Shown here: piece after piece, positions 41,466 to 60,561 of the stretch | Layout of the letters: each line of letters opens with the position of its first letter | Position numbering within the stretch: the first letter of the stretch is position 1 | Origin: Candidatus Amesbacteria bacterium GW2011_GWC2_45_19 | GTDB taxonomy: Bacteria; Patescibacteriota; Microgenomatia; CAZETR01; Amesbacteraceae | Length of the DNA: 64,000 bases | Direction of reading: 5' to 3' | Assembly (NCBI GenBank): GCA_001001555.1 | Contig: LCKS01000002.1 | Coordinates: 7,074 to 71,073, forward strand | Program-made: the position numbers and the translations under genes | The notes under the pieces: generated by a model | Told to the model about the DNA's origin: nothing | Seen by the model: only the letters and a program-made list of their open reading frames with translations | The model's database searches: none

Positions 41466-41477
41466 TATAGTTAGACC

Positions 41478-45095: not shown

Positions 45096-45120
45096 CTTTG
45101 AAAGGCCACGCCTTTCAAAG
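45096..45120. repeat. REP-like palindrome CTTTGAAAGGC-CAC-GCCTTTCAAAG
   Basis: Perfect 11-bp arms; same family as RAYT flanks; overlaps the stop region of the 45115-46248 gene. Confidence 0.8.
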
Positions 45121-46248: not shown

Positions 46249-46249
46249 A

Positions 46250-46903: not shown

Positions 46904-46915
46904 AAAATTACTATA

Positions 46916-47554
46916 TCATGGTTTACAATCTGATCCTTTGACAAATCCGGCTGCCCGCGCTTCTTTTTCGTTGCAAAACCACCCATCGCCTAAATATAAC
47001 TGCACGACGGTATTACCGTATTGTCCGCAACCAGGGTAGCGGTAAAACTTGGTCTCTTTTCCCTGCTGACCAATATTACCTTTGATATTGCACTTGGGTT
47101 GAATAGGATTTACATCTTGGGTACAGCCGGCGCCAAATATTCCTAAGGTACCGGCTCGGGCTTTCTCTCCTGCCTTCAGTAATTCATCTGCGTTAGAATC
47201 CGTGCCTCTGGCAAAATACGCCCAACCCTGCTCCAACATCTTTTTATTGACATAAATATTTCCCGCATATACTTGGCTGACCAGGCGTTTAAATTTATCA
47301 TTAAACACCACTTTTATTTGCAGCCGCTTCCCCAAAATCAACTTCTCCAGAGCTTGTTTGGCTTCGGTGCCGCCGCAATATTTCAACTCCGGGGCATCTA
47401 CACCGGCCAGGCGGACAACCTGTTTTTCCTTGGTTTCAAAAGTGTCCCCGTCTATCACTCGGGCAACCTGATATGTGGTTTTCAAATACACCGCTGCGGC
47501 TAAAACCACCGTCCCTACCACCCCCGCCATTATCTTCCCTTTCATTTTTCCCAC
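46916..47554 (-). CDS. membrane-anchored thermonuclease (SNase family) with Cys-rich C-terminal domain
   Basis: N-terminal TM; VIDGDTF...VRLAGVDAPEL SNase motif; C-terminal CNIKGNI...YRYPGCGQY...WFCNEKEARAAGF domain. Confidence 0.75.
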   Translation of the reverse strand: MGKMKGKIMAGVVGTVVLAAAVYLKTTYQVARVIDGDTFETKEKQVVRLAGVDAPELKYCGGTEAKQALEKLILGKRLQIKVVFNDKFKRLVSQVYAGNIYVNKKMLEQGWAYFARGTDSNADELLKAGEKARAGTLGIFGAGCTQDVNPIQPKCNIKGNIGQQGKETKFYRYPGCGQYGNTVVQLYLGDGWFCNEKEARAAGFVKGSDCKP

Positions 47555-47577
47555 CCTTCTAGTCTAGCACACAACCG

Positions 47578-48276
47578 ATGTATACTATCAAACAGGGAAA
47601 TGCAAACTTTATGAATAAAGAAGTTACCAAGATAACTAAAATCGCGATCTTCCAAAACAGGAAAATCCGTAAAACCATTTATCAGAATGAATGGTGGTTT
47701 GTGATCGAGGATGTAGTTTTAGCACTAATTGATTCAAATGACTCAAAGCAATATATTCAGCGCATGAGACTTCGTGACCCTGAGCTTTCCAAAGGGTGGG
47801 TACAAATCGTACATACCCTTTTAATGGAAACCAGTGGTGGTAAGCAGAAAATGAATTGTGCTGATACTGAGGGTGTTTTTAGGATTATCCAATCAATCCC
47901 TTCTCCTAAAGCAGAACCTTTTAAAAGATGGTTGGCCAGAGTTGGATATGAAAGGGTACAGGAGATAGAAGATCCGGAGCTTGCCCAAAAAAGGGTCACA
48001 TCTGAATATAAGAAAATAAAAGGACTCAAGCGTCAAAACCTGCGTGACCATATGAATGATTTGGAGCTGCTATTTTCTCAGCTTGGTGAAGCAGCAACCA
48101 CAGAGATTACCAAAACAGATCATCCTCAAGGGTTTAAGAAAAATAAGCAAGTCTCAAAACGTGGAGGTAAAATTGCCGGAGACGCCAGATCCAATCTTGA
48201 ACGCGAAACTGGAAGAAAAGTAATTACCTCGCAAAATTATTTACTTAAGAGACAGAATAAGAAACTTTTAAAATGA
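47578..48276 (+). CDS. Bro-N domain protein (DinD/antirepressor-like)
   Basis: IAIFQNRKIRKTIYQNEWWFVIEDVVLAL resembles Bro-N; AT-rich gene. Confidence 0.45.
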   Translation: MYTIKQGNANFMNKEVTKITKIAIFQNRKIRKTIYQNEWWFVIEDVVLALIDSNDSKQYIQRMRLRDPELSKGWVQIVHTLLMETSGGKQKMNCADTEGVFRIIQSIPSPKAEPFKRWLARVGYERVQEIEDPELAQKRVTSEYKKIKGLKRQNLRDHMNDLELLFSQLGEAATTEITKTDHPQGFKKNKQVSKRGGKIAGDARSNLERETGRKVITSQNYLLKRQNKKLLK

Positions 48277-48977
48277 ACAAATTTTATTTAGAAATTTTAG
48301 AAGCAATTAAACAAAAGGCTAAAAAAACAAAGCAAACCTCGGAGACATCCGGATATTTGGGACATAGGCATTTCCATTATGGATTAAGTGTTCCCCAGAG
48401 AAGGGTAATAGCTAACGCATGGATTAAAAATAATAATGCTATTTCTCTAACAAAATTTATAACTCTGTTAGACCTTCTTTATCGAGGAGACTCTTACGAA
48501 GAAAAATCTATGGCCGGATTGCTTCTGGGATATTTACCAAAACTTAGAAGACAATTGAATCCTAAATTATTGGATAACTGGCTTAGTTACTTGGAAGGTT
48601 GGGCTGAAATAGATTCTACTTGTCAGTCCAATTTCACGGCAGATGAAATCCTACTTAAGTGGAATGATTGGGAAAAATTAATTAAGAGTTTTGCTGACAA
48701 TAAAAGCGTTAGTAAGAGAAGAGCGAGCTTAGTATTATTAACAGGAGTTGTTAATAACTCGAATGATAAAAGACTTATCGGTTTGGCTTTTGAAGTTATA
48801 GATAAACTAAAATCTGAGAGAGATATTTTAATTACAAAAGCCGTCTCTTGGCTTCTAAGAAATTTAATCAGACACAATAAAATCAGAGTTGAAAAGTATC
48901 TCGACGAAAATTTAGACTACTTACCCATTATAGCAATAAGAGAAACTAAAAATAAACTTAGAACTGGCAAAAAATAG
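48273..48977 (+). CDS. DNA alkylation repair protein (AlkD/AlkC-like HEAT-repeat glycosylase family)
   Basis: C-terminal KAVSWLLRNLIRHNKIRVEKYLDEN resembles the DNA_alkylation family signature; overlaps upstream gene by 4 nt. Confidence 0.5.
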   Translation: MNKFYLEILEAIKQKAKKTKQTSETSGYLGHRHFHYGLSVPQRRVIANAWIKNNNAISLTKFITLLDLLYRGDSYEEKSMAGLLLGYLPKLRRQLNPKLLDNWLSYLEGWAEIDSTCQSNFTADEILLKWNDWEKLIKSFADNKSVSKRRASLVLLTGVVNNSNDKRLIGLAFEVIDKLKSERDILITKAVSWLLRNLIRHNKIRVEKYLDENLDYLPIIAIRETKNKLRTGKK

Positions 48978-49244
48978 ATAAAAGATTCAATAATTCTATT
49001 ATTCTACTGGCGGGGTACTTTTAACGCTAAAATAATAAGATGATACAGTTTTATAGCACAGTTAAAAGTTAGTTCGACCCCCGTCAGGGTATAAGGTTAT
49101 GGGATTAAATTTTGGCAAACTTTAGAAACTTTCCGAAGCTAAAATCCACGAGTTCGATAAAATTTCTATGGAGCTAGTTTTTGAAAAAGTTCGCACTGAT
49201 TTTCGAGATTCTCCGTGATGCTGCTGGCTCCCGCCTTCGCTGCC

Positions 49245-49295
49245 AGCTTCGGCCGTGCAGGCCGGCTCGGCTGCGGCCTCGCCTCCGCTTATTTT
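49245..49295. repeat. GC-rich structured element A (GCTTCGGCCGTGCAGGCCGGCTCGG...) in AT-rich island
   Basis: CGGCC-loop-GGCCG hairpin; related copy at 53121-53185; sharp GC spike in a ~35% GC background. Confidence 0.55.
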
Positions 49296-49493
49296 TTGCG
49301 CCCGAGATTATGCTCGCTAACGCGAGCATATTTTACTAAAATTTCCATTGGAATGGAAACTTTTGGCTTTGCCCCACCCACCCGTGCGTGCCAACGTAAA
49401 ATACATTGATAAGACTCCCTCTCCAGCCTTACTATTGACAGGAATTATTTTTTATGTTAAATATAGTTAAATCTGACTTAACTAAAATATACA

Positions 49494-51239
49494 ATGAAAA
49501 AAGTTAACAATACTAAAATTTTATCGACTGCAGAGGCTAGTCGTTTATTGGGGCTAACCCGGCAAACGTTATATAAACTCGCGGAAAAAGGTGAACTACC
49601 GGGGAAAAAGATCGGCAGAAATTATAAGTTCTTCGAGCAAGATATTTTAAGCTATATTCGCCTCCATAAAAAGCTTCCGAAATATAAAGAGTGGGAATTA
49701 AGAGCAGATTTTGCTACTGAAGGGATTAAGAAAATGGCAAAACGTACTTTTCAAGGTCTTTCATCAAATATTGAAGAGCTAATTGCAAATTCATATGATG
49801 CTGATGCAACTTCCGTAAGGATTGTCATTAATAACGACAAAGGAACGTTGAGCATAATTGACAATGGTTCAGGGATGGATGAATCTGCGCTTGCTTCTTT
49901 TGTGAAGTATGGGAAGAGTGATAAGGACTCAGATTACCGTTCTCCAAAATTTGGACGGTCTCCGATTGGCGAATACGGAATGGGCGGAAAGCTGGCAATA
50001 ACTAATATTTCTAGACGTTGCAAGATAATTACAAGAAGAAACGGTTATGAGCACATATTTAACATGAATCGTGCAGACCTCGATAAGGCTAAGTATATAA
50101 GTGATGTCAAAAGTAGGGTGCTGACCAAAAAATGCAGTAAGAAATACCACGGTACTGAAATATACATGGAAGATTTGTTTACGAAAACTATCGACAGTGA
50201 AAGGTTGCAGGAGAGATTTTCTACAAAAATGCCATTAAGTCAGAATTTTCAAATCGTTATGGTCGTCATTCGAAATAATGAAAAAAAGGAACAGACAGTA
50301 AGCGAACCTATTTTTGAATATGAACGAAAATTCGACTTTAGTGACGATCTTCCAAAAATAGGGAATGTTAAGATGTCTATTTATTTCACTAAAGAGCCTA
50401 TAGCGGCTACAAAACAAGGTGTATGGACAAAGGTAAATGGGAGAATAGTTAACGAAAAAGCTGAGTGGTTTGATTTGTTTCGAGCAACCTCCGGTACGAG
50501 ATATAGATATAGGTTATTCGGGTATGGTGAGGCTGATGGTCTGAAAGACTATGTGACTTTTTCTAAAAACGATTTTATCGACTGTCCCGAATACAATGAG
50601 TATTGGGAATTTGGTCACAAAAATATCTTAAAGGTACAAAATACCCTTCTTCGTGATGACGAGAACATTAAAAAGGAGCAAGATAGAAACCTAGTGAAAG
50701 ATGTTGAGAAAGAAGTGAACGATATTGTCTCGAAATTAGATGACCCCGCCACATTAGGTGTTCTTGAGGCGAAAATAAAGAAGGAGTTTACGAAGGAAAA
50801 GGAAAGTGCTCCTGAAGCTCCTTATCCAAATATAGATGTTATTGAAAAAGAGGCAGAAAAAGTTGTTTCCGTAGTCAAAAGAGGAAAAGATAAAAGAGAA
50901 AGGCGAAACCAGTCCATAGCCCCTAGTGAAAGAGTGTCATACTCAGGTAGAAATTATGTAATAACACCAGTCGATCTTTCTGAAACAGGGGACATTGTCA
51001 AATTTACTAAAGAAATGAACTTAATAGAAATTAACGAGAAGCATCCCTTGTACGTTAAAGCATCTAGAAACAGCTCATTAGATGATTTAGTTAGAAGTCT
51101 CGCATTTACAGAAATTGCTTACGACTACAGCGAAGGGGACTTTGTTAGTTTTGACGCTGTATTTAATGAATTAGCTAGAATTGCGTCAAGGCGGGTTAAA
51201 TTAATTGGTATGGAAGATCTAACAGCTAGTAGCGGGTAA
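49494..51239 (+). CDS. HTH (excisionase/MerR-like) fused to GHKL/MORC-like ATPase (HATPase_c_3) protein
   Basis: N-terminal HTH (STAEASRLLGLTRQTLYKLAEKGELPG); Bergerat-fold boxes ELIANSYDADA (N-box), IIDNGSGMD (G1), GEYGMGGK (G2); 581 aa. Confidence 0.6.
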   Translation: MKKVNNTKILSTAEASRLLGLTRQTLYKLAEKGELPGKKIGRNYKFFEQDILSYIRLHKKLPKYKEWELRADFATEGIKKMAKRTFQGLSSNIEELIANSYDADATSVRIVINNDKGTLSIIDNGSGMDESALASFVKYGKSDKDSDYRSPKFGRSPIGEYGMGGKLAITNISRRCKIITRRNGYEHIFNMNRADLDKAKYISDVKSRVLTKKCSKKYHGTEIYMEDLFTKTIDSERLQERFSTKMPLSQNFQIVMVVIRNNEKKEQTVSEPIFEYERKFDFSDDLPKIGNVKMSIYFTKEPIAATKQGVWTKVNGRIVNEKAEWFDLFRATSGTRYRYRLFGYGEADGLKDYVTFSKNDFIDCPEYNEYWEFGHKNILKVQNTLLRDDENIKKEQDRNLVKDVEKEVNDIVSKLDDPATLGVLEAKIKKEFTKEKESAPEAPYPNIDVIEKEAEKVVSVVKRGKDKRERRNQSIAPSERVSYSGRNYVITPVDLSETGDIVKFTKEMNLIEINEKHPLYVKASRNSSLDDLVRSLAFTEIAYDYSEGDFVSFDAVFNELARIASRRVKLIGMEDLTASSG

Positions 51240-51297
51240 ATACCAGACAGTTATTAGTTATATTTTCGTAACAAAATAGAAACTAGTTAAAAAGATA

Positions 51298-52413
51298 ATG
51301 ATCAAAGGCATTTTTCCAAACGAAAAAATTTTGACAAGGGGCCGTCTTCATGATGACGATTCGATAGATGTACTTAACTTTCCAACTCGCGTACTAAACA
51401 CCTTAGTAATGCACGACTATGAGACCGTTGGACATTTTTATCGCGTGTCGATGGCTGATTTGGGAAGGATAAGAAATATTGGAACTAAGACATTAAAGTA
51501 CTTTGGAGAAGTCAAAGCAGCAATAAAAGAACATCGAAAAGAGCCTGATCTGCCGCCACTAGAAACCGCGAAGTCAAAGGAAGCAAAGCCTTCAAGTTTT
51601 GTGCCTTATTTGACAGAAACTGAAAAAGAAAGAATGAAGTTGGTTAAGAGACTCTATGACGAGTATGGCACTCTAGAAAAAGTGGGAAGCCTGCTGAGAC
51701 TGTCAAGAGAAAGAGTTAGACAAATATTAAATAAAGGTCAAAAATATGGCCTTTTCACTTACCAGTTAACCCGAGATAGAAAATTTGATGAAGTGCTAAA
51801 CAAGATAGATGGGGAACGGCTAAGGGTATTACTTAGTACTACCAAAAATCAATTTGATGTTTGTTCGAATTTGGGGATAGATATAAGTACTCTTCAAAGG
51901 TTGATTAAATATTATAACATTGATCTCGTGTCCTATAAACAGGATGCTAGATATAAGAGATACTTAGTAGAATACTCCGAGATGGTTCGCGTACTTGGAT
52001 ATCATCCATCTACCACCATTATGCAGCGCCGCAAGGAATGGAGGAAAATATGGGCGGGTATTGTTAGGCTGTGGGGAAGTTTTGATCGATTTAGAGCAGA
52101 GTTTGGTATCGAAAAACCTAAACACTCTATGCACCCTAACACCTTAAAAGCTTGGCAACGAGCAAAGGAAAGAAGAATGGCGCATAAAAAGGAAAAAGTC
52201 GAAAACGTATACAAAATCATCGCTGAGCATGGTCCTTTAACTTGCAAAAAAATTTCCTACCTGGCAGGGTATAGTGATCAAATTGTCTATCAATATGTAA
52301 AAGATATGGTTAAAAAAAATAAGATTAAAAAATTAGGCAAAGGAAATAGAATTAAGTACGGATTAAATATTCAAAAAAATTATATTAAGCAATCAAAAAA
52401 CTATGCACACTAA
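51298..52413 (+). CDS. DNA-binding protein with RNAP alpha-CTD-like HhH and sigma70-region-4-like HTH
   Basis: LNFPTRVLNTLVMHDYETVGHFYRVSMADLGRIRNIGTKTLKYF (alpha-CTD-like); LSRERVRQILNKG (sigma70 r4-like); 371 aa. Confidence 0.4.
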   Translation: MIKGIFPNEKILTRGRLHDDDSIDVLNFPTRVLNTLVMHDYETVGHFYRVSMADLGRIRNIGTKTLKYFGEVKAAIKEHRKEPDLPPLETAKSKEAKPSSFVPYLTETEKERMKLVKRLYDEYGTLEKVGSLLRLSRERVRQILNKGQKYGLFTYQLTRDRKFDEVLNKIDGERLRVLLSTTKNQFDVCSNLGIDISTLQRLIKYYNIDLVSYKQDARYKRYLVEYSEMVRVLGYHPSTTIMQRRKEWRKIWAGIVRLWGSFDRFRAEFGIEKPKHSMHPNTLKAWQRAKERRMAHKKEKVENVYKIIAEHGPLTCKKISYLAGYSDQIVYQYVKDMVKKNKIKKLGKGNRIKYGLNIQKNYIKQSKNYAH

Positions 52414-53059
52414 TGACGAAATTAAAGAAACTATTTTAAAATGTCTATATGAGCATGTTCAAAAATCTAAAGGACCTTCCGGTATTCCGATGGGGATACG
52501 AGATTTAACCTCGGCAGTCAAATCCAAAATTGACGTTAAGCAACAGGTAGTTAGTTCTAACCTACATTCATTAATAAAAAACGGGTTTGTGGATGAGAAG
52601 GAGGTTCAAAATCCTTACGCTGCCGCTAAGTTTAACAGCAAGCCCGCTGTTAAATATGAACTCTCGAGAGCCGGAATTAGTTATTTTGATCAAGGTTCAA
52701 AGTTTGATCTGGCAGATAGAAACACAGGTATAAACATTCAAATGTTAAACAGCGCTGTGGTTATCGGAAATCAAAACATAGTCAAGAATATTGTGAGGGA
52801 GGAATATAAAGAGGGTTACTTGAAACTTGAGGAACTTGGGAAAAGAGTCAACTTATCTTCTGATATAAAAAATGAAGACAAAGTGAATTTGCAAGCTGAC
52901 ATTGAAACCATTAAAAACCAACTTGCGAAAGTTTCTCCAAACCACAATATTGTAAAAGCAGCTTTAGCAAGCCTATCAGGATTAGCTGATATATCTCAGT
53001 TATCTTCTCATTATGAAAGCGTCAAGAATTGGATTCTTTCCATCTTGGGCTTTAGTTAA
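52403..53059 (+). CDS. hypothetical protein (possible wHTH N-terminus)
   Basis: 218-aa ORF overlapping upstream gene by 11 nt; no recognised motif. Confidence 0.35.
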   Translation: MHTNDEIKETILKCLYEHVQKSKGPSGIPMGIRDLTSAVKSKIDVKQQVVSSNLHSLIKNGFVDEKEVQNPYAAAKFNSKPAVKYELSRAGISYFDQGSKFDLADRNTGINIQMLNSAVVIGNQNIVKNIVREEYKEGYLKLEELGKRVNLSSDIKNEDKVNLQADIETIKNQLAKVSPNHNIVKAALASLSGLADISQLSSHYESVKNWILSILGFS

Positions 53060-53120
53060 AAATTTTTGCATTTTCTCGTTTGAACACAAGGGAAAACACA
53101 GTTTGAGCCGATGTTTGCGG

Positions 53121-53185
53121 AGGCTTCGGCCGTTAGGCCGAGCCGGAGCCTGGGTGCGAGGCCGCGAGGCAGCCGAGCTTGATCA
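53121..53185. repeat. GC-rich structured element B (GCTTCGGCCGTTAGGCCGAGCCGG...)
   Basis: Shares GCTTCGGCCGT-N-AGGCCG-N-CGG core with element A. Confidence 0.55.
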
Positions 53186-53279
53186 CAGGGAATTTTCCCG
53201 AAAATCAGTTCGAACTTTTTCAAAAATCAGCTCAAAAGTCCTAAATTTTGAGTTGGTAACGATTAAAAGGTAAGTAGTT

Positions 53280-54167
53280 TCAAGATATGTTTCTTGTAAT
53301 TGTTTTCATTTTAAACATTTTTGTATCTATCAAAAACTCATACCCCGTTAATTTTAGCCATAGGTTAATGTTTTCTGTCAGTTGATACATTGGTACACCC
53401 AGATGACTAACCAGACTCCGATTAATCTTATAGGTTTTAAGTGCTTCAGCCTCATGATATTTAGGAATGTCTGGAAAATCTAAAACTTGATATTTATCGT
53501 CTTTCACTCTCCTTAAGAGTAAAAACCTGTCAGGATAATTTTTGTTCTCCTTGTTAACCTCACTACCCCTAACTAACCTGTATTTATTTTTAACATCTTT
53601 ATCTTCAGAAGGGAGAAAGATATTTTCAATTTTCTGCACGTCACTCACATCTCTAAGTCTTTTCAATAATTCAATAACTGCAATGATTTGATCATTTTCA
53701 AATTTTTCTGTGATAAGGGGGTTTTTCAAAATATTTTCGAGGTTCGATTCGTACGCCTCCCAAGTTCTGAATATTTGAAATCCAAAAAAGGTATTTGTTT
53801 CCAATAATTTGTTTATATCTTTTAAGCTTATAGATAAAAATTTGGACACACTACTTTGGCTATAATCTAACTCTTCCAGTGGATAAAAGAATTTCATGAG
53901 TTGATATACTATTCCCAAAACCTCTCTATCAATCTGCATTTTTCCGTACTCAAATATTTCTTGATTTAGTTTTCTGTTGGAAACACTCTTTATCAGTTCA
54001 TAAGAAATTAGGATTGCCGTAATAGCAATTAACGAAGCAGAAATATTAATTAAAAGATCTCTAATGTTTCCATTAACATATTTGCTTAGGCAATATATGA
54101 AAATGCCTGTTAGAAAAGATACAAAATAGGGCAACATAGTATAGAAAAAGCTTTTTGGAAATTTCAT
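53280..54167 (-). CDS. hypothetical membrane protein (2 N-terminal TM + cytoplasmic domain)
   Basis: 295-aa ORF, AT-rich, no known motif. Confidence 0.4.
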   Translation of the reverse strand: MKFPKSFFYTMLPYFVSFLTGIFIYCLSKYVNGNIRDLLINISASLIAITAILISYELIKSVSNRKLNQEIFEYGKMQIDREVLGIVYQLMKFFYPLEELDYSQSSVSKFLSISLKDINKLLETNTFFGFQIFRTWEAYESNLENILKNPLITEKFENDQIIAVIELLKRLRDVSDVQKIENIFLPSEDKDVKNKYRLVRGSEVNKENKNYPDRFLLLRRVKDDKYQVLDFPDIPKYHEAEALKTYKINRSLVSHLGVPMYQLTENINLWLKLTGYEFLIDTKMFKMKTITRNIS

Positions 54168-54313
54168 ACCCTAATTATAAATCAAGTTGTGTTGGTGTTA
54201 TACTCGGATTACCGAATGACCTCTGTGGTGAAGGTATCTTACTTTTAGAGAACTGATGGCACGAAAGTGATCCATCTTAGCCACAGAGATCGCATACAAA
54301 TAGGTATCAAAAT

Positions 54314-55129
54314 ATGAACGGGAATGATAAAGCATTGGTAACGCAGAGGATTGGTCAGTTAAAAAAATCGGCTGGAGAGTTAGCTGAGAATGTCACAGTA
54401 AATAATAAAAAAGAGTTTGTAAGTGTGGTGGGTTTATTACTTCACAACCTTGCCTCAGTCGTCGTTCCTGGATATGCCGTTGGTGCGGGGACTATAAAAG
54501 ATTATTATGATCAAAAGGTTAATAAGAAAAGACAACAAGAGATTGATTCTCTCCTGGGCAATTTAAATAGACGTTTGTCTTCAGTTGAGATAAAGCAAGA
54601 AGCGGTCGATTATTTTGAAAACACAATTGTGTTTCAGCTCGAAGAAATAACTCGGAAATTATTAACAAATCCCGGCAGAGGCTTTGGTGAAGTAATAGCT
54701 GAATTTGTCGCTAGCGCATTAGAAAACATGGATCTTCACCCCAAAACTAAAGATCTTGTACTATCTACGCTCCTAAGCTTGGACAGCGTAGATCTTTTGG
54801 TGCTTAAAACTATGGACAAGCATTTTCTTTCAAATTTACCTCAAAATGGAGGAAATGGGGCTAGGGGCGTAACCAGAGATTCTATTTGTACCTTACTTAA
54901 GGACCGCAATATGGACGAAGCTGTTATTGATCGATCTCTCCAGCGACTACAGTCAGAATCACTTATTCAACCCATGAAAGTTAGTGCTCCCGCTATTACT
55001 GAAGCTCCGACTGCGGATGAGTTGTATAAAGGAAAACGACCTGACCAATTCGATGCTCCCGGAGGATTTATTAACACAGGTTTCGGTAGAATATTTATTA
55101 ATTTTCTTAAACTGAATGACGACAAATGA
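54314..55129 (+). CDS. hypothetical protein
   Basis: 271-aa ORF, 4-nt ATGA overlap with next gene (translational coupling). Confidence 0.4.
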   Translation: MNGNDKALVTQRIGQLKKSAGELAENVTVNNKKEFVSVVGLLLHNLASVVVPGYAVGAGTIKDYYDQKVNKKRQQEIDSLLGNLNRRLSSVEIKQEAVDYFENTIVFQLEEITRKLLTNPGRGFGEVIAEFVASALENMDLHPKTKDLVLSTLLSLDSVDLLVLKTMDKHFLSNLPQNGGNGARGVTRDSICTLLKDRNMDEAVIDRSLQRLQSESLIQPMKVSAPAITEAPTADELYKGKRPDQFDAPGGFINTGFGRIFINFLKLNDDK

Positions 55130-55950
55130 ATATCAAAAATGATATTGATGTAATAATTCAGAACCTTAAATCATCGTTAGATTCAACTTCTGAGTCAAAA
55201 AAGCAATTGAGCGGATACACAATTCAGCTAGGGAAACAAGAAGAGCAAATTGAATCGGCAATTAACTTATGGGAAGAAATGAAAGGACAGAATGTCACGC
55301 CTCCTCAACCAATCACCGCCTCTGGAGTTGCACTAACTTATACTCTCCAACAATCATCACAAGATTTAAAGACATACGTCTCGAATCAAAGTTGGACAAA
55401 TCAGCTACAAGCTTTGGGGACAACTGCTCTAACAATAAATTCTGTTGCTGCTTCTGGAGCCTCGCTCTCATACCCACCAGGATATCGTTCGCAAGCCCTT
55501 GTTCAAGTAAATCTAATTGAAGAGAGGTATAGTCAAAGATCTGCGATCTCGCAGAAACTTTATGCAATTGATCAGTCATTAGGCCAAGAGTATGATAACG
55601 CTTGGCAAACATTACATCAGGCCACTCAAGATCCTACCCGTTCACCAATGTTTCTAATGAGGGAGGTGGAACGCAGATTGCTTGATTATTTTGCTCCAGA
55701 GATCGAACTTAGAAAGTATCATTCATTAGTTCCTAGCGACAAAATAACAGGCAGGCATAAAGTAGATTACTTGAAATCAATAATCAAACCATCTGCACAA
55801 ACCGCTTTTCTTGCCCAAGAACAGGCGTTAAATAACATTTATGCTTTATTGAGTAAGGCACATTCACCAGGCCAATTAGACATCGAGAAAACTAAAGCAT
55901 TTTTATACCAAGCTGATGCTCTGATTCAATTACTATTAGATTCTTTTTAG
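55126..55950 (+). CDS. hypothetical protein
   Basis: 274-aa ORF coupled to upstream ORF. Confidence 0.4.
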   Translation: MNIKNDIDVIIQNLKSSLDSTSESKKQLSGYTIQLGKQEEQIESAINLWEEMKGQNVTPPQPITASGVALTYTLQQSSQDLKTYVSNQSWTNQLQALGTTALTINSVAASGASLSYPPGYRSQALVQVNLIEERYSQRSAISQKLYAIDQSLGQEYDNAWQTLHQATQDPTRSPMFLMREVERRLLDYFAPEIELRKYHSLVPSDKITGRHKVDYLKSIIKPSAQTAFLAQEQALNNIYALLSKAHSPGQLDIEKTKAFLYQADALIQLLLDSF

Positions 55951-56065
55951 GTCCGACTCCGGTATCGGGTATTCAAAACTTCCAGGCTAACTCAAAAAAG
56001 CAAAAAAACCTGGCTCGAACCAGGTTTCTAGGCTAAATTTGCTAAAATTTCAATTCATTACGGTA

Positions 56066-56139
56066 TGGAGCGGGATACGGGAATCGAACCCGCTTCTTCT
56101 GCTTGGGAAGCAGATATACTACCGGTGTACTAATCCCGC
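56066..56139 (-). tRNA. tRNA-Gly (anticodon CCC), CCA encoded
   Basis: Reverse-complement fold: acceptor GCGGGAT/ATCCCGC, D-arm GTAC-ACCGGTA-GTAT, anticodon stem TCTGC/GCAGA loop TTCCCAA, T-arm GCGGG-TTCGATT-CCCGT. Confidence 0.8.
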
Positions 56140-56379
56140 ATTTAGTAGTTTTTTCAAAGCCTCGCCACCTTTGTAGGATTTTATCATCTTTTCTCTGGCT
56201 AAAGCTTCACTATATGTCTCATACTGCTCAGAATAAATTAATTTCCAATTTCCTTTAGCATAACGAGTTGAAGTAGTTTTTCCCCGATTGTGTTCAGCCA
56301 GTCGTTTTTCCAAGTCAGAAGTACAACCGATATATCTCCGGTTTGAAAGTATATTTTGGATAATATAGGTCCAAAACAT
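56119..56379 (-). CDS. small GIY-YIG nuclease (stand-alone catalytic domain)
   Basis: MFWTYIIQNILSNRRYIGCTSDLEKRLAEHNRG...KGNWKLIY...E motif set of GIY-YIG domain. ORF extends to 56412 through a hairpin; 3' end overlaps tRNA-Gly by 21 nt. Confidence 0.7.
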   Translation of the reverse strand: MFWTYIIQNILSNRRYIGCTSDLEKRLAEHNRGKTTSTRYAKGNWKLIYSEQYETYSEALAREKMIKSYKGGEALKKLLNAGLVHR

Positions 56380-56409
56380 CTGAACCCCCTTCTCCCCGCC
56401 TTGGCGGGG

Positions 56410-56434
56410 CATACTACCGGTGTACTAATCCCGC
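56410..56434. repeat. 25-bp perfect direct repeat of the tRNA-Gly 5' portion (other copy 56116-56140)
   Basis: ATACTACCGGTGTACTAATCCCGCA occurs twice, bracketing the GIY-YIG ORF. Confidence 0.9.
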
Positions 56435-56469
56435 ACTTCGACTCCGCTCAGTGTAAACTATTTTACAAC

Positions 56470-56976
56470 TTAGTTACAGATAATTTTGAGCGTTTGGCCC
56501 ACGTACAGCAGATTAGGGTTGGCCAATTTGTTTTCATTGGCTGTTTTCACCCAGGCGTACCCGTTTTGGCAAATTTTCACCGAGATGTTCCACAGATTGT
56601 CGCCTGCCTCCACGGTGTAGCTAACCGGCTGTTTGACTTCCACTTCGGGCAAAGTCAGTTTGGTGCCGACGTACAGCAAGTCCGGATGATTAGCCAAAAC
56701 TTCTTTATTGGCCTGATATACGTCCGTCCAGTTGTAGCCGGATCCGTAAGCTGCCTCGGAAATAGTCCATAGGCTATCGCCCGCCACTACGGTGTATTCA
56801 TTTCCCGCCACCGGTTCTTCGACCTTAACGGTGGATGTGGATGTAGTCTCGCCCTTTTTGTTTACCGATTTAAAGTAGTTGTACAGCAGCCCCACGACCA
56901 GAAGTACCACTACTAATCCCAATCCCATGCTGATATTTTGCTCGTTCAGTTTCAGTTTTTTCAATAAATCTTTCAT
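56470..56976 (-). CDS. LysM-domain peptidoglycan-binding protein (two LysM repeats, N-terminal TM)
   Basis: YTVVAGDSLWTISEAAYGSGYNW...LLYVGTKLTLP and YTVEAGDNLWNISVKICQNGYAW...LLYVGQTLKI. Confidence 0.8.
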   Translation of the reverse strand: MKDLLKKLKLNEQNISMGLGLVVVLLVVGLLYNYFKSVNKKGETTSTSTVKVEEPVAGNEYTVVAGDSLWTISEAAYGSGYNWTDVYQANKEVLANHPDLLYVGTKLTLPEVEVKQPVSYTVEAGDNLWNISVKICQNGYAWVKTANENKLANPNLLYVGQTLKIICN

Positions 56977-57039
56977 CGTTCCTCCTTCCCGGGCAGAGAT
57001 ATGGTTAGGCCAAGAATATACCCTGAACGCATTATCAAA

Positions 57040-58542
57040 TCAATGGGTATTCATTTGAAAACGGCCCGAACCGGTCAGGAGGCGCAGTGGGGAAGGATTG
57101 ATGGCTTGCAGTTGGGATACACTCTTGGCTCCTCTAAATACCATGGCCAGAATCGCGTCTTCGGTCAGCATATGCAAATTGTATGTCAGGGTCGGTAAAA
57201 CGTTTTTTACATAGCTCATTTCAGCCTTGGTTGTTTCTCCTTCCACAAACGAAGGAATAGTGAATGGCAGCAATTTGCCGTCTAAAAATTTGGTTCTGGC
57301 CGACGCCTCTCCCCCGTAAGGCTTAAACAATCTGCCTTTCTCGTCAGAACAAAACAGCATTCCCCCCGGGGATTCGATGGTTCCTCCCGCCACCACCCGG
57401 GAAACGCTGATCCCGGAAGCTCCCAGCAGTAAACTGGTGGCTACATGGTCTGATGCGCCTCCCTCGACAATAATGGGAATTAGCAGCTCGCCCCGCAGTC
57501 CCCATACCAGTTCCGGCCAATCAATGACCGATCCGCTTCTTACTCCCGTGACGCATCTGCCTCCGCCGCCGACGCCCACAAATAATCCGTCGGCCCCCGC
57601 TTCCTGCACCCGCTTGGCCTGGTCGACGTCTACCACTTGGCCTGAAAACATTTCCACCTTTTGTCCAAATTCCTTTCTCAGAGCCATAGTTGTCCGTTCC
57701 AAATTCAGCCCCGGTTCCGGAGAATACACCCTAAATGATCTTACTCCGGCTTTATACAGCGAATTGGCTCTTTCCAAAGCTGTGATAGGATTAGTTTCCA
57801 GAGTTCCCACCACATTGTTTTTCCACCACCCGGAAACCCCTCTTCTGTCAGCCCGTTTGGCCAGTATCAGCTCTTCCAGCTCGTCCAATCTCTCGAATAC
57901 TTCTCTGGCCAAATCGGCTTGCCGGACAATTTTCGACAGCACGCCATTTCTGGGAATTCCAGCCAAACTGTGGCTGGCAGCCATGGTGGCTACCGCCAGC
58001 GAACTGTTCCATACATCAGGAGAGGCAGATCCTACAAATAGGTTTCTACCCTGGCGGCCCAGTTTGACAAAAGGGCCTTGGGCATATCTTTCTGTCCGGC
58101 TGATTCTGTCCCGGTCCGAACCCGTAACGCTGGCTCCCAAGTCTCCAATCGACAGGCTCATTCCCGTTTTGGCCACGTAGTCAAAAGCCCCGCATTCAAT
58201 TTTTGCCGGGGGTAGAAACTTGCTCCCTGTTACGGATTTTAAGTAGCCCATTCTGTGAGGATGATTGAACAGTTCCAAGAAAAACAGCCGCATCCTCAAA
58301 GTTTCGATCATTTTTTCCTGGGGCAGCATCTGCAGCGAAGCCACCGGCAAAGCGTCAAAAGGAGTCAACAACAACCCTTGGCTAGGATACACATCATCAT
58401 GGTTTTTACTCACTTTCAACCATGGCTCTAAATATCGGCTAATGTTTTTTTCATAAGGGAGCAGTTTGTCTAAGACTTTCTTTTCTCCAAAATCTTTTTC
58501 CCGGAATTTATTAAAATCGTTTCTTAACTGAGCGTTTGACAC
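57040..58542 (-). CDS. IMP dehydrogenase/GMP reductase-family TIM-barrel protein with novel N-terminal extension
   Basis: GVGGGGRCVTGVRSG and IIVEGGASDHVATSLLLGASGISV resemble IMPDH catalytic loop and phosphate-binding regions; about 170 aa N-terminal region without match. Confidence 0.45.
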   Translation of the reverse strand: MSNAQLRNDFNKFREKDFGEKKVLDKLLPYEKNISRYLEPWLKVSKNHDDVYPSQGLLLTPFDALPVASLQMLPQEKMIETLRMRLFFLELFNHPHRMGYLKSVTGSKFLPPAKIECGAFDYVAKTGMSLSIGDLGASVTGSDRDRISRTERYAQGPFVKLGRQGRNLFVGSASPDVWNSSLAVATMAASHSLAGIPRNGVLSKIVRQADLAREVFERLDELEELILAKRADRRGVSGWWKNNVVGTLETNPITALERANSLYKAGVRSFRVYSPEPGLNLERTTMALRKEFGQKVEMFSGQVVDVDQAKRVQEAGADGLFVGVGGGGRCVTGVRSGSVIDWPELVWGLRGELLIPIIVEGGASDHVATSLLLGASGISVSRVVAGGTIESPGGMLFCSDEKGRLFKPYGGEASARTKFLDGKLLPFTIPSFVEGETTKAEMSYVKNVLPTLTYNLHMLTEDAILAMVFRGAKSVSQLQAINPSPLRLLTGSGRFQMNTH

Positions 58543-58570
58543 AGTTGCAAGTATACCGCAAAATCCATTT

Positions 58571-59134: not shown

Positions 59135-59147
59135 AATGACCTCGTCT

Positions 59148-59225
59148 GGGCTCGTGGTGTAGCTTGGTTAACACGTGTCCCTGTCAAGGACAAGATCGCC
59201 GGTTCGAATCCGGTCGGGCCCGCCA
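59148..59225 (+). tRNA. tRNA-Asp (anticodon GUC), CCA encoded
   Basis: Acceptor GGGCTCG/CGGGCCC (one G-U), anticodon stem TGTCC/GGACA loop CTGTCAA, T-arm GCCGG-TTCGAAT-CCGGT. Confidence 0.8.
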
Positions 59226-60546: not shown

Positions 60547-60561
60547 TATGTCAAACTAGGT

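What the first reader, a model, noticed from the sequence alone, without database searches (positions are those of the whole stretch)
48980..56139. AT-rich (~35% GC) genomic island abutting the 3' end of tRNA-Gly
From about 47.6 kb, and clearly from 49.0 kb, to the 3' end of the minus-strand tRNA-Gly at 56066 the composition drops well below the about 50-55% GC of flanking housekeeping genes. The island content is: Bro-N/DinD-like and AlkD-like genes, an HTH-GHKL ATPase, a putative DNA-binding protein, and five ORFs with no recognisable domains. Islands integrated at tRNA 3' ends are classical, but no integrase is visible, so this may be a decayed or non-canonical element. The unknown genes are candidates for a defence or anti-defence cargo.
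Basis: partly seen in the sequence, partly recalled or inferred. Interest (0 to 1): 0.65.

Follow-up and report, generated by a model that had tools for sequence, protein, structure and literature searches.

The report
Integrase-less mosaic island beside tRNA-Gly
An 8.5-kb AT-rich block next to a glycine tRNA gene in an uncultivated groundwater bacterium is foreign DNA: a patchwork of gene modules that elsewhere ride on small tRNA-targeting mobile elements, here without the recombinase, and its cargo looks like, but is not shown to be, anti-phage/conflict genes.

Summary
Window 47578-56065 is 36.8% GC against 47.1% for the rest. Its eight genes have GC3 of 0.27-0.35 against 0.51±0.06 (p=2e-8). 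The drop starts at 47.6 kb, not 49.0 kb. The block ends about 60-115 nt from the 3' end of tRNA-Gly(CCC).

The genome is a Rifle-aquifer Candidatus Amesbacteria (CPR). The closest relatives found (L010, L015) lack the block at this tRNA. A more distant, low-GC relative (L026) has a 4-kb version at the same site, sharing only the GHKL gene pair.

The island is a mosaic of four modules:
- Bro-N (PADLOC PDC-S13) plus an AlkD-like glycosylase.
- An HTH-MORC-like GHKL ATPase plus a sigma-region-4/alpha-CTD multi-HTH partner, plus p218, bracketed by ~120-nt inverted repeats.
- A 2TM protein whose C-terminal domain is fused elsewhere to Mrr or TIR-like heads.
- p271 plus a pP_pnuc_1 protein.

Three of these modules recur elsewhere beside a large serine recombinase gene that overlaps the 3' end of a tRNA. 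The window has no recombinase, no recombinase remnant and no att repeat.

Verdict: a decayed, fixed, horizontally acquired island with conflict-type cargo. It is a new member of a known kind. The GHKL pair is a plausible undescribed two-gene system. Defence function is inferred, not shown.

The parts
47578..48276 (+). Bro-N domain protein of 232 aa (public gene calls start at 47611, giving 221 aa). First low-GC gene; divergent from the SNase gene at 46916-47554.
   Evidence: Pfam Bro-N 1.3e-13. PADLOC candidate PDC-S13 2.4e-77. phrog_15286 4.9e-53. GC3 0.35.
48273..48977 (+). AlkD-like HEAT-repeat DNA glycosylase family protein of 234 aa. Overlaps the Bro-N gene by 4 nt, so the two likely form an operon.
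   Evidence: Pfam DNA_alkylation 3.4e-24. GC3 0.27.
49170..49290 (+). Left inverted-repeat arm (IR_A). Starts sharply at GAGCTAGTTTTTGAAAAAGTTCGCACTGATTTTCGAGATTCTCCGTGAT, followed by GC-rich hairpins. Causes the local GC bump.
   Evidence: No Rfam match. No covariation support for an RNA structure.
49435..49493 (+). Promoter/operator of the GHKL operon: TTGACA followed by repeated (T)GTTAA(A) motifs.
   Evidence: The same TTGACA plus GTTAA-repeat layout lies upstream of the GHKL gene in L026, L027, L028 and L037. DNA homology to L026 starts at 49450.
49494..51239 (+). HTH_17 (MerR/excisionase-type) plus MORC-like GHKL ATPase plus S5-like transducer plus long coiled coil plus small C-terminal domain; 581 aa.
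   Evidence: Pfam HATPase_c_3 1.7e-20 and HTH_17 6.9e-12. Invariant Bergerat-fold motifs in 28 homologues. PDB profile hits to MORC3, MORC2 and MutL. AF2 model pLDDT 76; Foldseek MORC3 5ix1 at E 1e-13 over 383 columns, rmsd 4.7.
51298..52413 (+). Partner protein of 371 aa: RpoA alpha-CTD-like HhH, a sigma-70 region-4 HTH, a second HTH, an HNH_repeat-like motif and a C-terminal winged HTH.
   Evidence: Pfam RNA_pol_A_CTD 1.2e-8 and Sigma70_r4 3.3e-6. Follows the GHKL gene in all six loci examined. Alignment A4 and its profile hit sigma-A region 4.
52403..53059 (+). p218: probable N-terminal wHTH. Its C-terminal ~100 aa is weakly like PADLOC PDC-M14B. Overlaps the partner gene by 11 nt. Not conserved with the GHKL pair elsewhere.
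   Evidence: PADLOC PDC-M14B 3.8e-6. No Pfam hit. No tblastn hit in the other GHKL loci.
53110..53238 (-). Right inverted-repeat arm (IR_B). 86% complementary to IR_A over the first 43 nt, with a different inner continuation.
   Evidence: The same A/B pairing and polarity appear in L033 next to an LSR and tRNA-Gly(tcc).
53280..54167 (-). p295: two predicted N-terminal transmembrane helices (read from the sequence, not tested with a tool) plus a ~230-aa conserved soluble domain.
   Evidence: 274 family representatives at E<1e-3. In longer members the same domain follows an Mrr_cat head (P0252, 6e-7) or a weak CAP12/Pycsar-TIR-like head (6 of 10 members, E~1e-3, below Pfam cut-off). No PDB relative.
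54314..55129 (+). p271: no known domain. Overlaps p274 by 4 nt.
   Evidence: 23 homologues, none with a Pfam domain. 71% identical in a Nomurabacteria LSR element at tRNA-Ser.
55126..55950 (+). p274: pP_pnuc_1 family (Pfam 'predicted pPIWI-associating nuclease'), all-alpha.
   Evidence: PF18165 5.5e-5, 23.3 bits against a cut-off of 26.3. 23 of the 24 listed homologues carry PF18165; the one identical to the window protein has no precomputed domain. AF2 pLDDT 89 with 12 helices; no PDB or BFVD fold match. DNA homology to L029 is confined to 55094-55950.
56004..56029 (-). Terminator-like hairpin downstream of tRNA-Gly. Marks the right edge of the island as lying between 55951 and ~56003.
   Evidence: sequence.
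56066..56139 (-). tRNA-Gly(ccc), intact.
   Evidence: ARAGORN. Rfam tRNA 63.2 bits.
56119..56412 (-). Small GIY-YIG ORF lying between an exact 25-nt duplicate of the tRNA-Gly 5' end (56411-56435) and the tRNA itself (56116-56140). Its last 8 codons (LNAGLVHR) overlap the 5' end of the tRNA gene, the last 7 lying wholly within it. This is a separate small insertion, not part of the AT-rich block proper.
   Evidence: Pfam GIY-YIG 1e-16. Repeat found; sequence. L010 has LysM followed by 13 nt and then tRNA-Gly, with no insert.

Best explanation
Window ~47.58-56.0 kb is a horizontally acquired accessory island. It is now immobile and fixed in the population. It lies between a housekeeping SNase gene and the 3' end of tRNA-Gly(CCC) in a Candidatus Amesbacteria genome.

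It is a mosaic of at least four separately transferable modules, not one element:
1. Bro-N/PDC-S13 plus an AlkD-like glycosylase.
2. A self-contained operon bracketed by ~120-nt inverted repeats. It encodes an HTH-MORC-like GHKL ATPase, a multi-HTH partner (sigma region 4, alpha-CTD and wHTH) and p218.
3. p295, a 2TM protein whose C-terminal domain is a swappable partner of effector-type heads.
4. p271 plus a pP_pnuc_1 protein.

Most likely origin (inferred). One or more small integrative elements were driven by a large serine recombinase (LSR) that targets tRNA 3' ends. They landed at tRNA-Gly(CCC). The recombinase was later lost and cargo was exchanged module by module.

Most likely function of the cargo (inferred from domains and contexts only): inter-genomic conflict, meaning defence against phages or other mobile DNA, or element self-protection.
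- The GHKL protein would act as an ATP-driven dimeric DNA clamp, brought to DNA by its own HTH and by the partner's DNA-binding modules. It would be autoregulated through GTTAA repeats at its promoter.
- p295 would act as a membrane effector coupled to a sensor domain.
- p274 would act as a nuclease, as Pfam predicts.

Shown: the composition, the anatomy, absence from the nearest relatives, the cross-phylum distribution, co-occurrence with LSR/tRNA junctions elsewhere, and the lack of any recombinase here.
Inferred: the integration route, the loss of the recombinase, and every biochemical function.
For: - Composition: 36.8% against 47.1% GC; GC3 0.27-0.35 against 0.51±0.06, p=1.7e-8.
- Relatives: L010 (79% IMPDH identity) has tRNA-Gly(ccc) 12 nt from Ham1. 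L015 has tRNA-Gly, then 560 bp, then tRNA-Thr. No island protein gives a tblastn hit in 16 relatives' loci, except Bro-N in L020.
- L026, a low-GC relative, has only the GHKL pair plus two other genes between an SNase remnant and tRNA-Gly(ccc). GHKL is 79% and the partner 62% identical to the window's proteins, against 32-52% for LysM, Wzy, Big and PolX.
- The GHKL family has >100 full-length homologues at 46-82% identity, in Omnitrophota, Margulisiibacteriota, Peregrinibacteria and Pseudomonadota. The partner gene follows directly in 6 of 6 loci. The promoter/operator layout is conserved in 5 loci.
- LSR contexts. L037: tRNA-Met, LSR, GHKL, partner, Trypsin_2. L028: LSR, HTH_17, GHKL, partner, Trypsin_2, inside a low-GC island. 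L031: tRNA-Asn, LSR ... p274 homologue. L029: p274 homologue next to an LSR. L039: tRNA-Ser, LSR ... p271 homologue. L033: tRNA-Gly(tcc), LSR, then the same inverted-repeat pair around other cargo. The LSR ORF overlaps the tRNA by 16-91 nt in four loci.
- DNA homology to other loci is limited to gene-sized blocks: 55094-55950 and 49450-52215.
- Conflict-type signatures: PDC-S13 2.4e-77; MORC-like fold; p295 family with 2TM, Mrr and TIR-like heads; pP_pnuc_1.
- Fixed in the population: nine contigs are 99.9-100% identical.
Against: - No recombinase, recombinase remnant or att repeat is present in the window, so integration at this tRNA is not demonstrated.
- L026 carries the GHKL pair at the same tRNA. 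This could mean old vertical presence rather than repeated targeting.
- Local synteny is rearranged among relatives, so 'absent in relatives' compares different species, not an empty site in the same species.
- No complete known defence system is called by PADLOC models.
- No nuclease or other effector domain is visible in the GHKL pair.
- In L027 the pair sits between comM-like and ruvB housekeeping genes with no recombinase.
- The TIR-like heads in the p295 family are below Pfam thresholds.
- The window p274 is itself below the PF18165 cut-off.
- None of the cargo has any experimental annotation.
Confidence: 0.62

Rival explanations
1. The 4.07-kb segment 49170-53238 (GHKL, partner, p218) is itself a still-functional, non-autonomous mobile or invertible cassette. 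Its ~120-nt inverted repeats would be the sites used in trans by a recombinase encoded elsewhere, for example an LSR like that of L033. On this reading the island grows by capturing such cassettes.
For: - The inverted-repeat pair is unique in the window and brackets exactly one operon.
- In L033 the same repeat pair brackets a different 1.7-kb cargo directly next to an LSR and tRNA-Gly(tcc), with the same A/B variants and the same polarity relative to the tRNA.
- The repeat is 97% identical over 65 nt between the window and L032, a different CPR organism whose proteins are only 27-35% identical.
Against: - No target-site duplication is visible, and all nine population contigs show one orientation.
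- The repeat is not associated with the GHKL pair in L026, L027 or L028.
- Solo copies sit 18-28 nt from the 5' ends of tRNA genes (L032, L034). This fits a promoter or intergenic repeat as well as it fits a recombination site.
- Only four further stretches carry the repeat in the metagenome scan.
Confidence: 0.15
2. The block is a degraded prophage: a Bro-N anti-repressor-like gene, an excisionase-type HTH and DNA-binding regulators left over after the structural genes were lost.
For: - Bro-N matches PHROG anti-repressor families, and the HTH_17 domain matches excisionase PHROGs.
- One GHKL homologue (L036) sits in a run of small same-strand ORFs that looks phage- or plasmid-like.
- Weak Bro-N relatives (33-37% identity) occur in four unannotated gut 'Bacteriophage sp.' records.
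Against: - No capsid, tail, terminase, portal or lysis gene is present.
- No relative of the GHKL family, the p274 family or Bro-N was found in 2.9 million IMG/VR viral contigs.
- The recurrent context is small LSR elements of 5-10 kb, not phage genomes.
Confidence: 0.06
3. The region is native, vertically inherited DNA. Its low GC would reflect local constraints, such as AT-rich regulatory or accessory genes under relaxed selection, rather than transfer.
For: - The window contains other short low-GC patches inside ordinary gene clusters: 13.3-13.8 kb and 34.2-35.5 kb.
- L026 has the GHKL pair at the same tRNA.
Against: - Eight contiguous genes all lie 2.5-4 sd below the window's mean GC3.
- The block is absent from the closest relatives' loci.
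- Island proteins are 62-79% identical across phyla and classes, where housekeeping proteins are only 32-52% identical.
- Homology is module-sized.
Confidence: 0.06
4. The GHKL pair and its neighbours are not defence genes. They would be maintenance or regulatory genes of the mobile elements themselves: control of excision or integration, or silencing of element genes.
For: - The N-terminal domain of the GHKL protein is of the excisionase/MerR type (TIGR01764 4e-10).
- The pair lies next to the LSR in L028 and L037.
- It carries a conserved autoregulatory-looking operator.
- No effector domain is seen.
Against: - The pair persists without any recombinase in the window, in L026 and in L027.
- It stays highly conserved (46-82% identity over its full length, with invariant ATPase motifs). 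This argues for a function that benefits the host or the genes themselves after the element has decayed.
- Prokaryotic MORC/paraMORC relatives are described in restriction-modification contexts (PMC2292703).
Confidence: 0.2

Closest known systems
tRNA-linked genomic or defence islands (classical integrase-borne islands at tRNA 3' ends)
   Same: Compositionally deviant block abutting the 3' end of a tRNA gene. Accessory, conflict-type cargo. Absent from close relatives. Mosaic content.
   Different: No integrase of any kind and no flanking direct repeat of the tRNA 3' end. The related intact elements use large serine recombinases rather than the tyrosine integrases of classical islands; that classical islands use tyrosine integrases is my own knowledge.
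Large-serine-recombinase integrative elements seen here in L028, L029, L031, L033, L037 and L039
   Same: Shared cargo (GHKL pair, p271, p274 and the inverted-repeat pair). Position at a tRNA 3' end. Low GC relative to the flanks in L028 and L037.
   Different: The defining recombinase gene, which in four of those loci overlaps the tRNA by 16-91 nt, is missing. In the window, p295, p271 and p274 occupy that position.
Prokaryotic MORC/paraMORC GHKL ATPases of restriction-modification systems (Iyer, Abhiman and Aravind 2008, PMC2292703)
   Same: GHKL domain plus S5-like transducer module with intact ATP-binding motifs. Sporadic, laterally mobile distribution. The best structural match is eukaryotic MORC3/MORC2.
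   Different: No neighbouring methylase, helicase or nuclease. The protein has an N-terminal HTH_17, a long coiled coil and a dedicated multi-HTH partner with sigma-region-4 and alpha-CTD-like domains. That paper mentions no sigma-type partner in its main text (0 occurrences of 'sigma').
GHKL-containing Shedu VcSduA (type I-D Shedu; PMC12137116)
   Same: An N-terminal GHKL ATPase in an anti-phage context, predicted to form a dimeric clamp.
   Different: VcSduA carries a C-terminal DUF4263 PD-(D/E)xK nuclease. The window protein has no such domain by Pfam or by predicted structure.
PADLOC candidate PDC-S13 and Bro-N anti-repressor-like proteins
   Same: Strong full-length HMM match (2.4e-77) and a Bro-N DNA-binding domain.
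   Different: PDC-S13 is only a computational candidate; no paper in the searched library mentions it. Here it is translationally coupled to an AlkD-like glycosylase, a pairing not seen at the one other Bro-N locus examined (L020).
Pfam PF18165 pP_pnuc_1 (predicted pPIWI-associating nuclease)
   Same: The p274 family matches this model.
   Different: No PIWI/Argonaute gene is in the window or in the three homologue loci examined. Nuclease activity is only a prediction. The confident all-alpha model has no solved structural relative.

Membership tests
tRNA-associated genomic island | Base composition and codon usage deviate from the host genome | tested here: met
   36.8% against 47.1% GC; GC3 0.32 against 0.51, p=1.7e-8.
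tRNA-associated genomic island | Abuts the 3' end of a tRNA gene | tested here: met
   The p274 stop codon at 55950 is 115 nt from the tRNA-Gly(ccc) 3' end at 56066, with only a terminator hairpin between them.
tRNA-associated genomic island | Encodes an integrase or recombinase | tested here: not met
   No such domain in any island ORF. tblastn with five LSRs finds nothing in the window except an artefactual match to the tRNA itself.
tRNA-associated genomic island | Flanked by a direct repeat of the tRNA 3' end (att sites) | tested here: not met
   No second copy of the 25-nt tRNA-Gly 3' segment within 3 mismatches anywhere in the window; none in the repeat scan. Intact LSR elements also lack such repeats.
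tRNA-associated genomic island | Absent from the same locus in related genomes | tested here: inconclusive
   Absent in L010 and L015. A smaller version holding the GHKL pair is present at tRNA-Gly(ccc) in L026. No same-species genome lacking it was available; all nine population contigs carry it.
Large-serine-recombinase integrative element | LSR gene (Resolvase + Recombinase + Zn_ribbon_recom) at the element edge, next to or overlapping the target tRNA | tested here: not met
   Present in L031, L033, L037 and L039 with 16-91 nt of overlap. Absent from the window.
Large-serine-recombinase integrative element | Cargo shared with bona fide members | tested here: met
   GHKL pair in L028 and L037. 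p274 homologues in L029 and L031. p271 homologue in L039. Inverted-repeat pair in L033.
MORC/paraMORC-type GHKL ATPase | Bergerat-fold ATP-binding motifs (N-box ExxxNxxD, DxGxG, G-rich lid) | tested here: met
   E94, N99, D102, D123, G125, G127 and G159-G165 are invariant in 28 homologues. HATPase_c_3 1.7e-20.
MORC/paraMORC-type GHKL ATPase | S5-fold transducer domain following the GHKL domain | tested here: met
   The predicted structure aligns over 383 columns to the MORC3 ATPase cassette 5ix1 (E 1.3e-13, rmsd 4.7) and to MORC2. This rests on a model with pLDDT 76.
MORC/paraMORC-type GHKL ATPase | Operon association with restriction-modification components (methylase, SF2 helicase, endonuclease), as described in PMC2292703 | tested here: not met
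   None in the window or in five other loci. The constant neighbour is a multi-HTH protein.
Shedu type I-D (GHKL + DUF4263) | C-terminal DUF4263 PD-(D/E)xK nuclease | tested here: not met
   No Pfam or PADLOC Shedu hit. The C-terminal half of the model is a coiled coil plus a small alpha/beta domain.
PADLOC PDC-S13 | Match to the PDC-S13 profile | tested here: met
   2.4e-77, 258 bits.
PADLOC PDC-S13 | Demonstrated anti-phage activity | not testable with these tools
   It is a candidate family only; no paper was found.
pP_pnuc_1 (PF18165) | Score above Pfam's gathering threshold | tested here: inconclusive
   The window protein scores 23.3 bits against a cut-off of 26.3. 23 of the 24 listed homologues, those at 35-78% identity, have the precomputed PF18165 hit; the identical one has none.
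pP_pnuc_1 (PF18165) | Association with a prokaryotic PIWI gene | tested here: not met
   No PIWI domain in the window ORFs or in L029-L031.
Prophage | Virion structural, packaging or lysis genes | tested here: not met
   None by Pfam or PHROGs. No relatives in IMG/VR.

The most novel reading that the evidence does not exclude
The HTH-MORC-like GHKL ATPase and its multi-HTH partner (sigma region 4, and in some members an RNA-polymerase alpha-CTD-like domain) form an undescribed, self-regulated two-gene conflict system. It would be spread across CPR, Omnitrophota and other uncultivated phyla as core cargo of tRNA-targeting large-serine-recombinase elements. It would act without a nuclease, in one of two ways: (a) by ATP-driven clamping or compaction that silences incoming DNA; or (b) by using polymerase-like decoy domains to sense phage factors that hijack RNA polymerase. 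Alongside it, the p295 family would be a new single-gene system with swappable 2TM, Mrr and TIR heads. The ~120-nt inverted repeats would mark a cargo slot of these elements.
Probability: 0.25. Interest if true: 0.7.

Novelty: new member of a known kind. Interest (0 to 1): 0.45.

Why it matters
Accessory and defence islands are well known in cultivated bacteria. They are much less charted in CPR/Patescibacteria, whose tiny genomes have been thought poor in such systems (my own knowledge).

This locus gives a concrete example of a decayed island in a CPR genome. It also ties three families of unknown function to a recognisable class of small elements that have a large serine recombinase gene overlapping a tRNA 3' end.

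It yields testable candidates:
- A strongly conserved MORC-like ATPase with a dedicated DNA-binding partner and a conserved operator. This could inform how bacterial MORC relatives work without restriction-modification partners.
- A domain family with 2TM, Mrr and TIR-like head swapping.

If none of these prove to be conflict systems, the finding remains an ordinary horizontally acquired island.

Tried and rejected
- Rfam, at gathering and permissive thresholds, found only the tRNA in 47-57 kb. The GC-rich non-coding stretches are not a known RNA.
- I suspected a tRNA-like remnant at 49009-49090. No tRNA-model hit appears at E<=1, and the T-stem does not pair. Dropped as chance.
- A direct repeat of the tRNA-Gly 3' end: none.
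- Recombinase pseudogene remnants: tblastn with five LSRs and other element genes found none.
- RNA structure in the inverted repeat. The single-sequence fold has z = -2.3, but the alignment of six copies gives no covariation (covariation term +2.06; the invariant hairpin is uninformative). It is not supported as a structured RNA.
- The inverted repeat as part of the GHKL module: rejected, because it is absent from L026, L027 and L028.
- p271 as a conserved partner of p274. BLASTP against the genes upstream of p274 homologues shows no similarity. p271 homologues pair with a different 213-aa gene. The pairing recurs at most in close relatives.
- Viral origin: four IMG/VR scans were negative. 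INPHARED gave only weak Bro-N hits. PLSDB plasmids gave only distant GHKL-domain hits.
- Fold searches for p274 in the PDB and BFVD found nothing significant.
- The promoter/terminator scan gave counts no higher than in shuffled sequence.
- Literature searches for PDC-S13, pP_pnuc and bacterial MORC defence systems found nothing specific to this gene pair.

Full report
**Observation**

The AT-rich block is real.
- One-kb windows from 48 to 56 kb are 33-41% GC, against 44-54% for most of the window.
- At 300-nt resolution the drop starts at ~47.55 kb, exactly where the plus-strand Bro-N gene begins opposite the SNase gene. It lasts to the tRNA-Gly region.
- Region 47578-56065 is 36.8% GC against 47.1% for the rest.
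- The eight genes inside have GC3 of 0.27-0.35, against 0.51±0.06 for 51 other genes (Mann-Whitney p=1.7e-8).
- tRNA-Gly(ccc) is at 56066-56139 on the minus strand, so its 3' end faces the block.

- The flanks are ~47% GC, not 50-55%.
- The segment 49.0-49.45 kb is a GC-rich non-coding bump, not the place where the island 'clearly' starts.
- There are four, not five, further real ORFs.

The sequence is not an assembly artefact. Nine independently assembled contigs from Rifle-aquifer samples and three GenBank CPR genomes are 99.9-100% identical to it, and contigs up to 185 kb and 229 kb span both junctions. A source name for one of the proteins identifies the organism as Candidatus Amesbacteria (GW2011_GWB1_47_26).

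**Gene content**

| Coordinates | Strand | Content |
|---|---|---|
| 47578-48276 | + | Bro-N protein with a very strong match to PADLOC candidate PDC-S13 (2.4e-77) |
| 48273-48977 | + | AlkD-like DNA_alkylation protein, overlapping Bro-N by 4 nt |
| 49494-51239 | + | HTH_17 + HATPase_c_3 protein |
| 51298-52413 | + | Protein with RpoA alpha-CTD-like, sigma-70 region-4 and winged-HTH domains |
| 52403-53059 | + | p218; C-terminus weakly like PDC-M14B |
| 53280-54167 | - | p295; apparent 2TM N-terminus (read from the sequence), no domain hit |
| 54314-55129 | + | p271; no hit |
| 55126-55950 | + | p274; weak pP_pnuc_1 |

No integrase, transposase or phage structural gene is present. The nearest transposase is an IS200-like Y1_Tnp at 41478-42167, outside the block.

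**Comparison with relatives**

I used the flanking IMPDH-like protein to fetch 16 loci from species representatives. I then mapped tRNAs and window proteins onto them.
- In the closest relative (L010, also Amesbacteria, 79% identity), tRNA-Gly(ccc) follows LysM and is 12 nt from Ham1.
- In L015 the order is LysM, tRNA-Gly, 560 bp, tRNA-Thr, Big, Wzy, GT2.
- None of AlkD, GHKL, partner, p218, p295, p271, p274 or GIY-YIG has a tblastn hit in any of these loci.
- The neighbourhood is also rearranged among tRNA-bounded blocks, so these are not clean empty sites.
- L026 is a more distant relative with ~37% GC overall. It has a 4-kb insert between an SNase remnant and the 3' end of tRNA-Gly(ccc)-LysM. 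That insert contains the GHKL gene and its partner plus two unrelated small genes.
- Between L026 and the window, GHKL is 79% and the partner 62% identical. LysM, Wzy, Big, GT2 and PolX are only 32-52% identical.

The shared pair is therefore either much more constrained than housekeeping genes or was acquired separately. Either way it sits at the same tRNA in both genomes.

**The GHKL pair**

The 581-aa protein has more than 100 full-length homologues at 46-82% identity. Sources name Omnitrophota, Margulisiibacteriota, Peregrinibacteria, Pseudomonadota and others.

In all six loci examined the next gene encodes a homologue of the multi-HTH partner. The two genes usually overlap or lie within 16 nt of each other; the gap is 58 nt in the window.

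The alignment of 28 homologues keeps the Bergerat-fold motifs invariant and is conserved along the whole length. A profile search of the PDB hits only MORC3, MORC2, MutL and Hsp90 N-terminal domains.

The AlphaFold model (pLDDT 76) has this layout:
- an N-terminal HTH;
- a GHKL domain plus transducer that superposes on the MORC3 ATPase cassette (E 1e-13, 383 columns, rmsd 4.7 Å);
- a long coiled coil (residues 365-459);
- a small C-terminal domain.

No nuclease fold is seen.

The partner's conserved core is a sigma-region-4-type HTH, a second HTH, an HNH_repeat-like motif and a C-terminal winged HTH. The alpha-CTD-like domain is present in three of six members.

Upstream of the GHKL gene, five loci from different lineages share a TTGACA box followed by three or four (T)GTTAA(A) repeats. 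This suggests an autoregulated, self-contained operon.

No relatives were found in IMG/VR. Only distant GHKL-domain matches were found in plasmids.

**Link to serine-recombinase elements**

| Locus | Arrangement |
|---|---|
| L037 | tRNA-Met, large serine recombinase (ORF overlaps the tRNA 3' end by 41 nt), small ORF, DprA-like, GHKL, partner, Trypsin_2 |
| L028 (Omnitrophota, complete genome) | LSR, HTH_17, GHKL, partner, Trypsin_2, inside a 29-39% GC island in a 47-51% GC genome |
| L029 | p274 homologue (78% identical) converging on an LSR |
| L031 | p274 homologue in an element whose LSR overlaps tRNA-Asn |
| L039 | p271 homologue (71%, Nomurabacteria) in an element whose LSR overlaps tRNA-Ser |

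These elements also show no tRNA-derived direct repeats. That is expected for serine recombinases, which use very short crossover cores (my own knowledge). The absence of an att repeat in the window is therefore uninformative.

tblastn with five of these recombinases finds no remnant in the window. DNA-level homology between the window and these loci stops at gene boundaries: 55094-55950 with L029, and 49450-52215 with L026. The island is therefore a mosaic of gene-sized modules.

**The inverted repeats**

Arms at 49170-49290 (+) and ~53110-53238 (-) bracket GHKL, partner and p218. They are unique in the window.

A metagenome scan for the 28-nt core found four more stretches. In L033, from another Rifle CPR organism, the arrangement is tRNA-Gly(tcc), LSR, repeat arm, 1.7-kb cargo (an APH-like kinase plus a small ORF), and an inverted repeat arm.

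In both the window and L033, the arm nearer the tRNA has inner variant B (...CCTCCGCGAAACATCGGCTC...) and the far arm has variant A (...CCTCCGC-ATTTTTTGCGC...). In the window, p295, p271 and p274 occupy the position that the recombinase holds in L033.

Solo copies in L032 and L034 lie 18-28 nt from the 5' end of tRNA genes. The L032 copy is 97% identical to the window's over 65 nt, although the two organisms' proteins are only 27-35% identical.

The repeat is not linked to the GHKL pair in other loci. It has no Rfam match and no covariation support for an RNA structure. I cannot say whether it is a recombination site, a cargo-slot boundary or a promoter-bearing intergenic repeat. It remains unexplained.

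**Other cargo**

- p295 belongs to a family with 274 representatives at E<1e-3. Most members are ~290 aa and align to p295 over nearly its whole length, including the N-terminal stretch I read as two TM helices. In longer members the same ~230-aa C-terminal domain follows an Mrr-type restriction endonuclease head (P0252; 6e-7, above Pfam cut-off). In six of ten long members it follows a weak CAP12/Pycsar-TIR-like head (E~1e-3, below cut-off). Head-swapping of this kind is typical of conflict systems (established knowledge), but the TIR assignments are weak.
- p274 gives a confident all-alpha model (pLDDT 89) with no solved or viral structural relative. Its 'nuclease' label is Pfam's prediction only, and no PIWI gene is nearby.
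- p271 has 23 homologues and no known domain.

**Interpretation**

The best-supported reading is a horizontally acquired, now recombinase-less mosaic island at the tRNA-Gly(CCC) 3' flank. It was assembled from modules that circulate on tRNA-targeting LSR elements among CPR and other uncultivated bacteria. It is fixed in the sampled population.

The cargo has conflict-system hallmarks, but no complete known defence system is detected and nothing has been tested.

My mechanistic proposal for the GHKL pair is inference from domain content and from what is known of MORC and GHKL proteins. The protein would act as an ATP-driven MORC-like DNA clamp, targeted by its own and its partner's DNA-binding modules. 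An element-maintenance or regulatory role is a serious rival.

Prophage-remnant and native-DNA explanations are poorly supported. The idea that the repeat-bracketed cassette is still mobile in trans cannot be excluded.

**Verdict**

As an island, this is a new member of a known kind, of moderate interest. The parts that could repay follow-up are the widely transferred GHKL/multi-HTH pair, the p295 head-swapping family, the cross-species repeat element, and the small GIY-YIG insertion at the tRNA.

Noticed in passing
window 56116-56140 and 56411-56435, bracketing ORF 56119-56412 (-): An exact 25-nt duplicate of the 5' end of tRNA-Gly lies 295 nt upstream of the intact tRNA. A 97-aa GIY-YIG ORF lies between the two copies, and its last 8 codons (LNAGLVHR, then stop) overlap the 5' end of the tRNA gene, the last 7 lying wholly within it. 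It looks like a small GIY-YIG cassette inserted at tRNA position ~25 with target duplication. That would place the ORF behind the tRNA's own upstream region (motif CACTGAGCGGAGTCGAAG at 56436-56453, also seen upstream of a tRNA in L034). Relatives L010, L015 and L026 have tRNA-Gly(ccc) without it. One population contig (L008) carries a 53-bp deletion at 56358-56410.
   Followed up: partly
window 49170-49290 (+) and 53110-53238 (-); L032:731-830, L033:1748-1865 and 3360-3481, L034:1655-1830, L035:5-32: A ~120-nt repeat element with a sharp outer end (GAGCTAGTTTTTGAAAAAGTTCGCACTGATTTTCGAGATTCTCCGTGAT), a GC-rich variable middle and two alternative inner ends. It is shared at up to 97% identity between different CPR organisms of the same aquifer. 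It occurs as inverted pairs around cargo next to a tRNA-Gly, or as solo copies next to tRNA 5' ends. No Rfam hit and no covariation.
   Followed up: partly
window 49435-49493; L026:7940-8000; L027, L028 and L037, ~70 nt upstream of the GHKL start: A conserved promoter/operator layout upstream of GHKL-family genes from different phyla: TTGACA followed by 3-4 copies of (T)GTTAA(A).
   Followed up: partly
L031:1419-2991, L033:42-1739, L037:3033-4542, L039:573-2333: In four unrelated loci a large serine recombinase ORF on the opposite strand overlaps the 3' end of a tRNA gene (Asn, Gly-tcc, Met, Ser-cga) by 16-91 nt. This suggests a class of small tRNA-targeting LSR elements in which the element supplies the tRNA 3' end. 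DUF5659 and small HTH_17 genes recur in them.
   Followed up: partly
window 41439-41465, 41956-41982, 45093-45119, 60557-60583; inverted pair 41440-41471 / 42163-42194: A short hairpin-containing repeat (..GAAAGGCCACGCCTTTCAAA) flanks the IS200-like Y1_Tnp gene at 41478-42167. It also occurs in two intergenic sites, one between tRNA-Thr and DUF2130 and one between the DEAD-box helicase and PolX. It may be a REP/IS200-type element.
   Followed up: no
window 13259-13804 and 34204-35531: Two other low-GC patches. One is a 181-aa protein with a PaaX_M/Cas2-like domain (GC 37%, GC3 0.36), preceded and followed by a 41-nt direct repeat (13196 and 13805). The other is a SAM methyltransferase (GC 31%) plus a glycosyltransferase fragment inside a sugar-modification cluster.
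   Followed up: no
window 44757-59225 compared with L010, L011, L015 and L026: The blocks bounded by tRNA-Thr(cgt), tRNA-Gly(ccc) and tRNA-Asp(gtc) are permuted and inverted between related Microgenomates. For example, IMPDH is directly followed by tRNA-Thr in L010 and L011, but is 12 kb from it in the window. The tRNA genes appear to be rearrangement break-points.
   Followed up: partly
window 48850-48878 and 54466-54478: The ends of independently assembled contigs cluster at these two positions: four contigs (L006-L009) start at 48850-48878, and two (L003, L004) end at 54466-54478. This may reflect strain variation or coverage drops in very AT-rich sequence.
   Followed up: no
L020:2936-5158: In a Paceibacterota genome, a Bro-N homologue (34-57% identity, in three pieces, possibly frameshifted) lies 1.3 kb downstream of tRNA-Gly(tcc). 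It is the only island-gene hit among the 16 relatives' loci.
   Followed up: no
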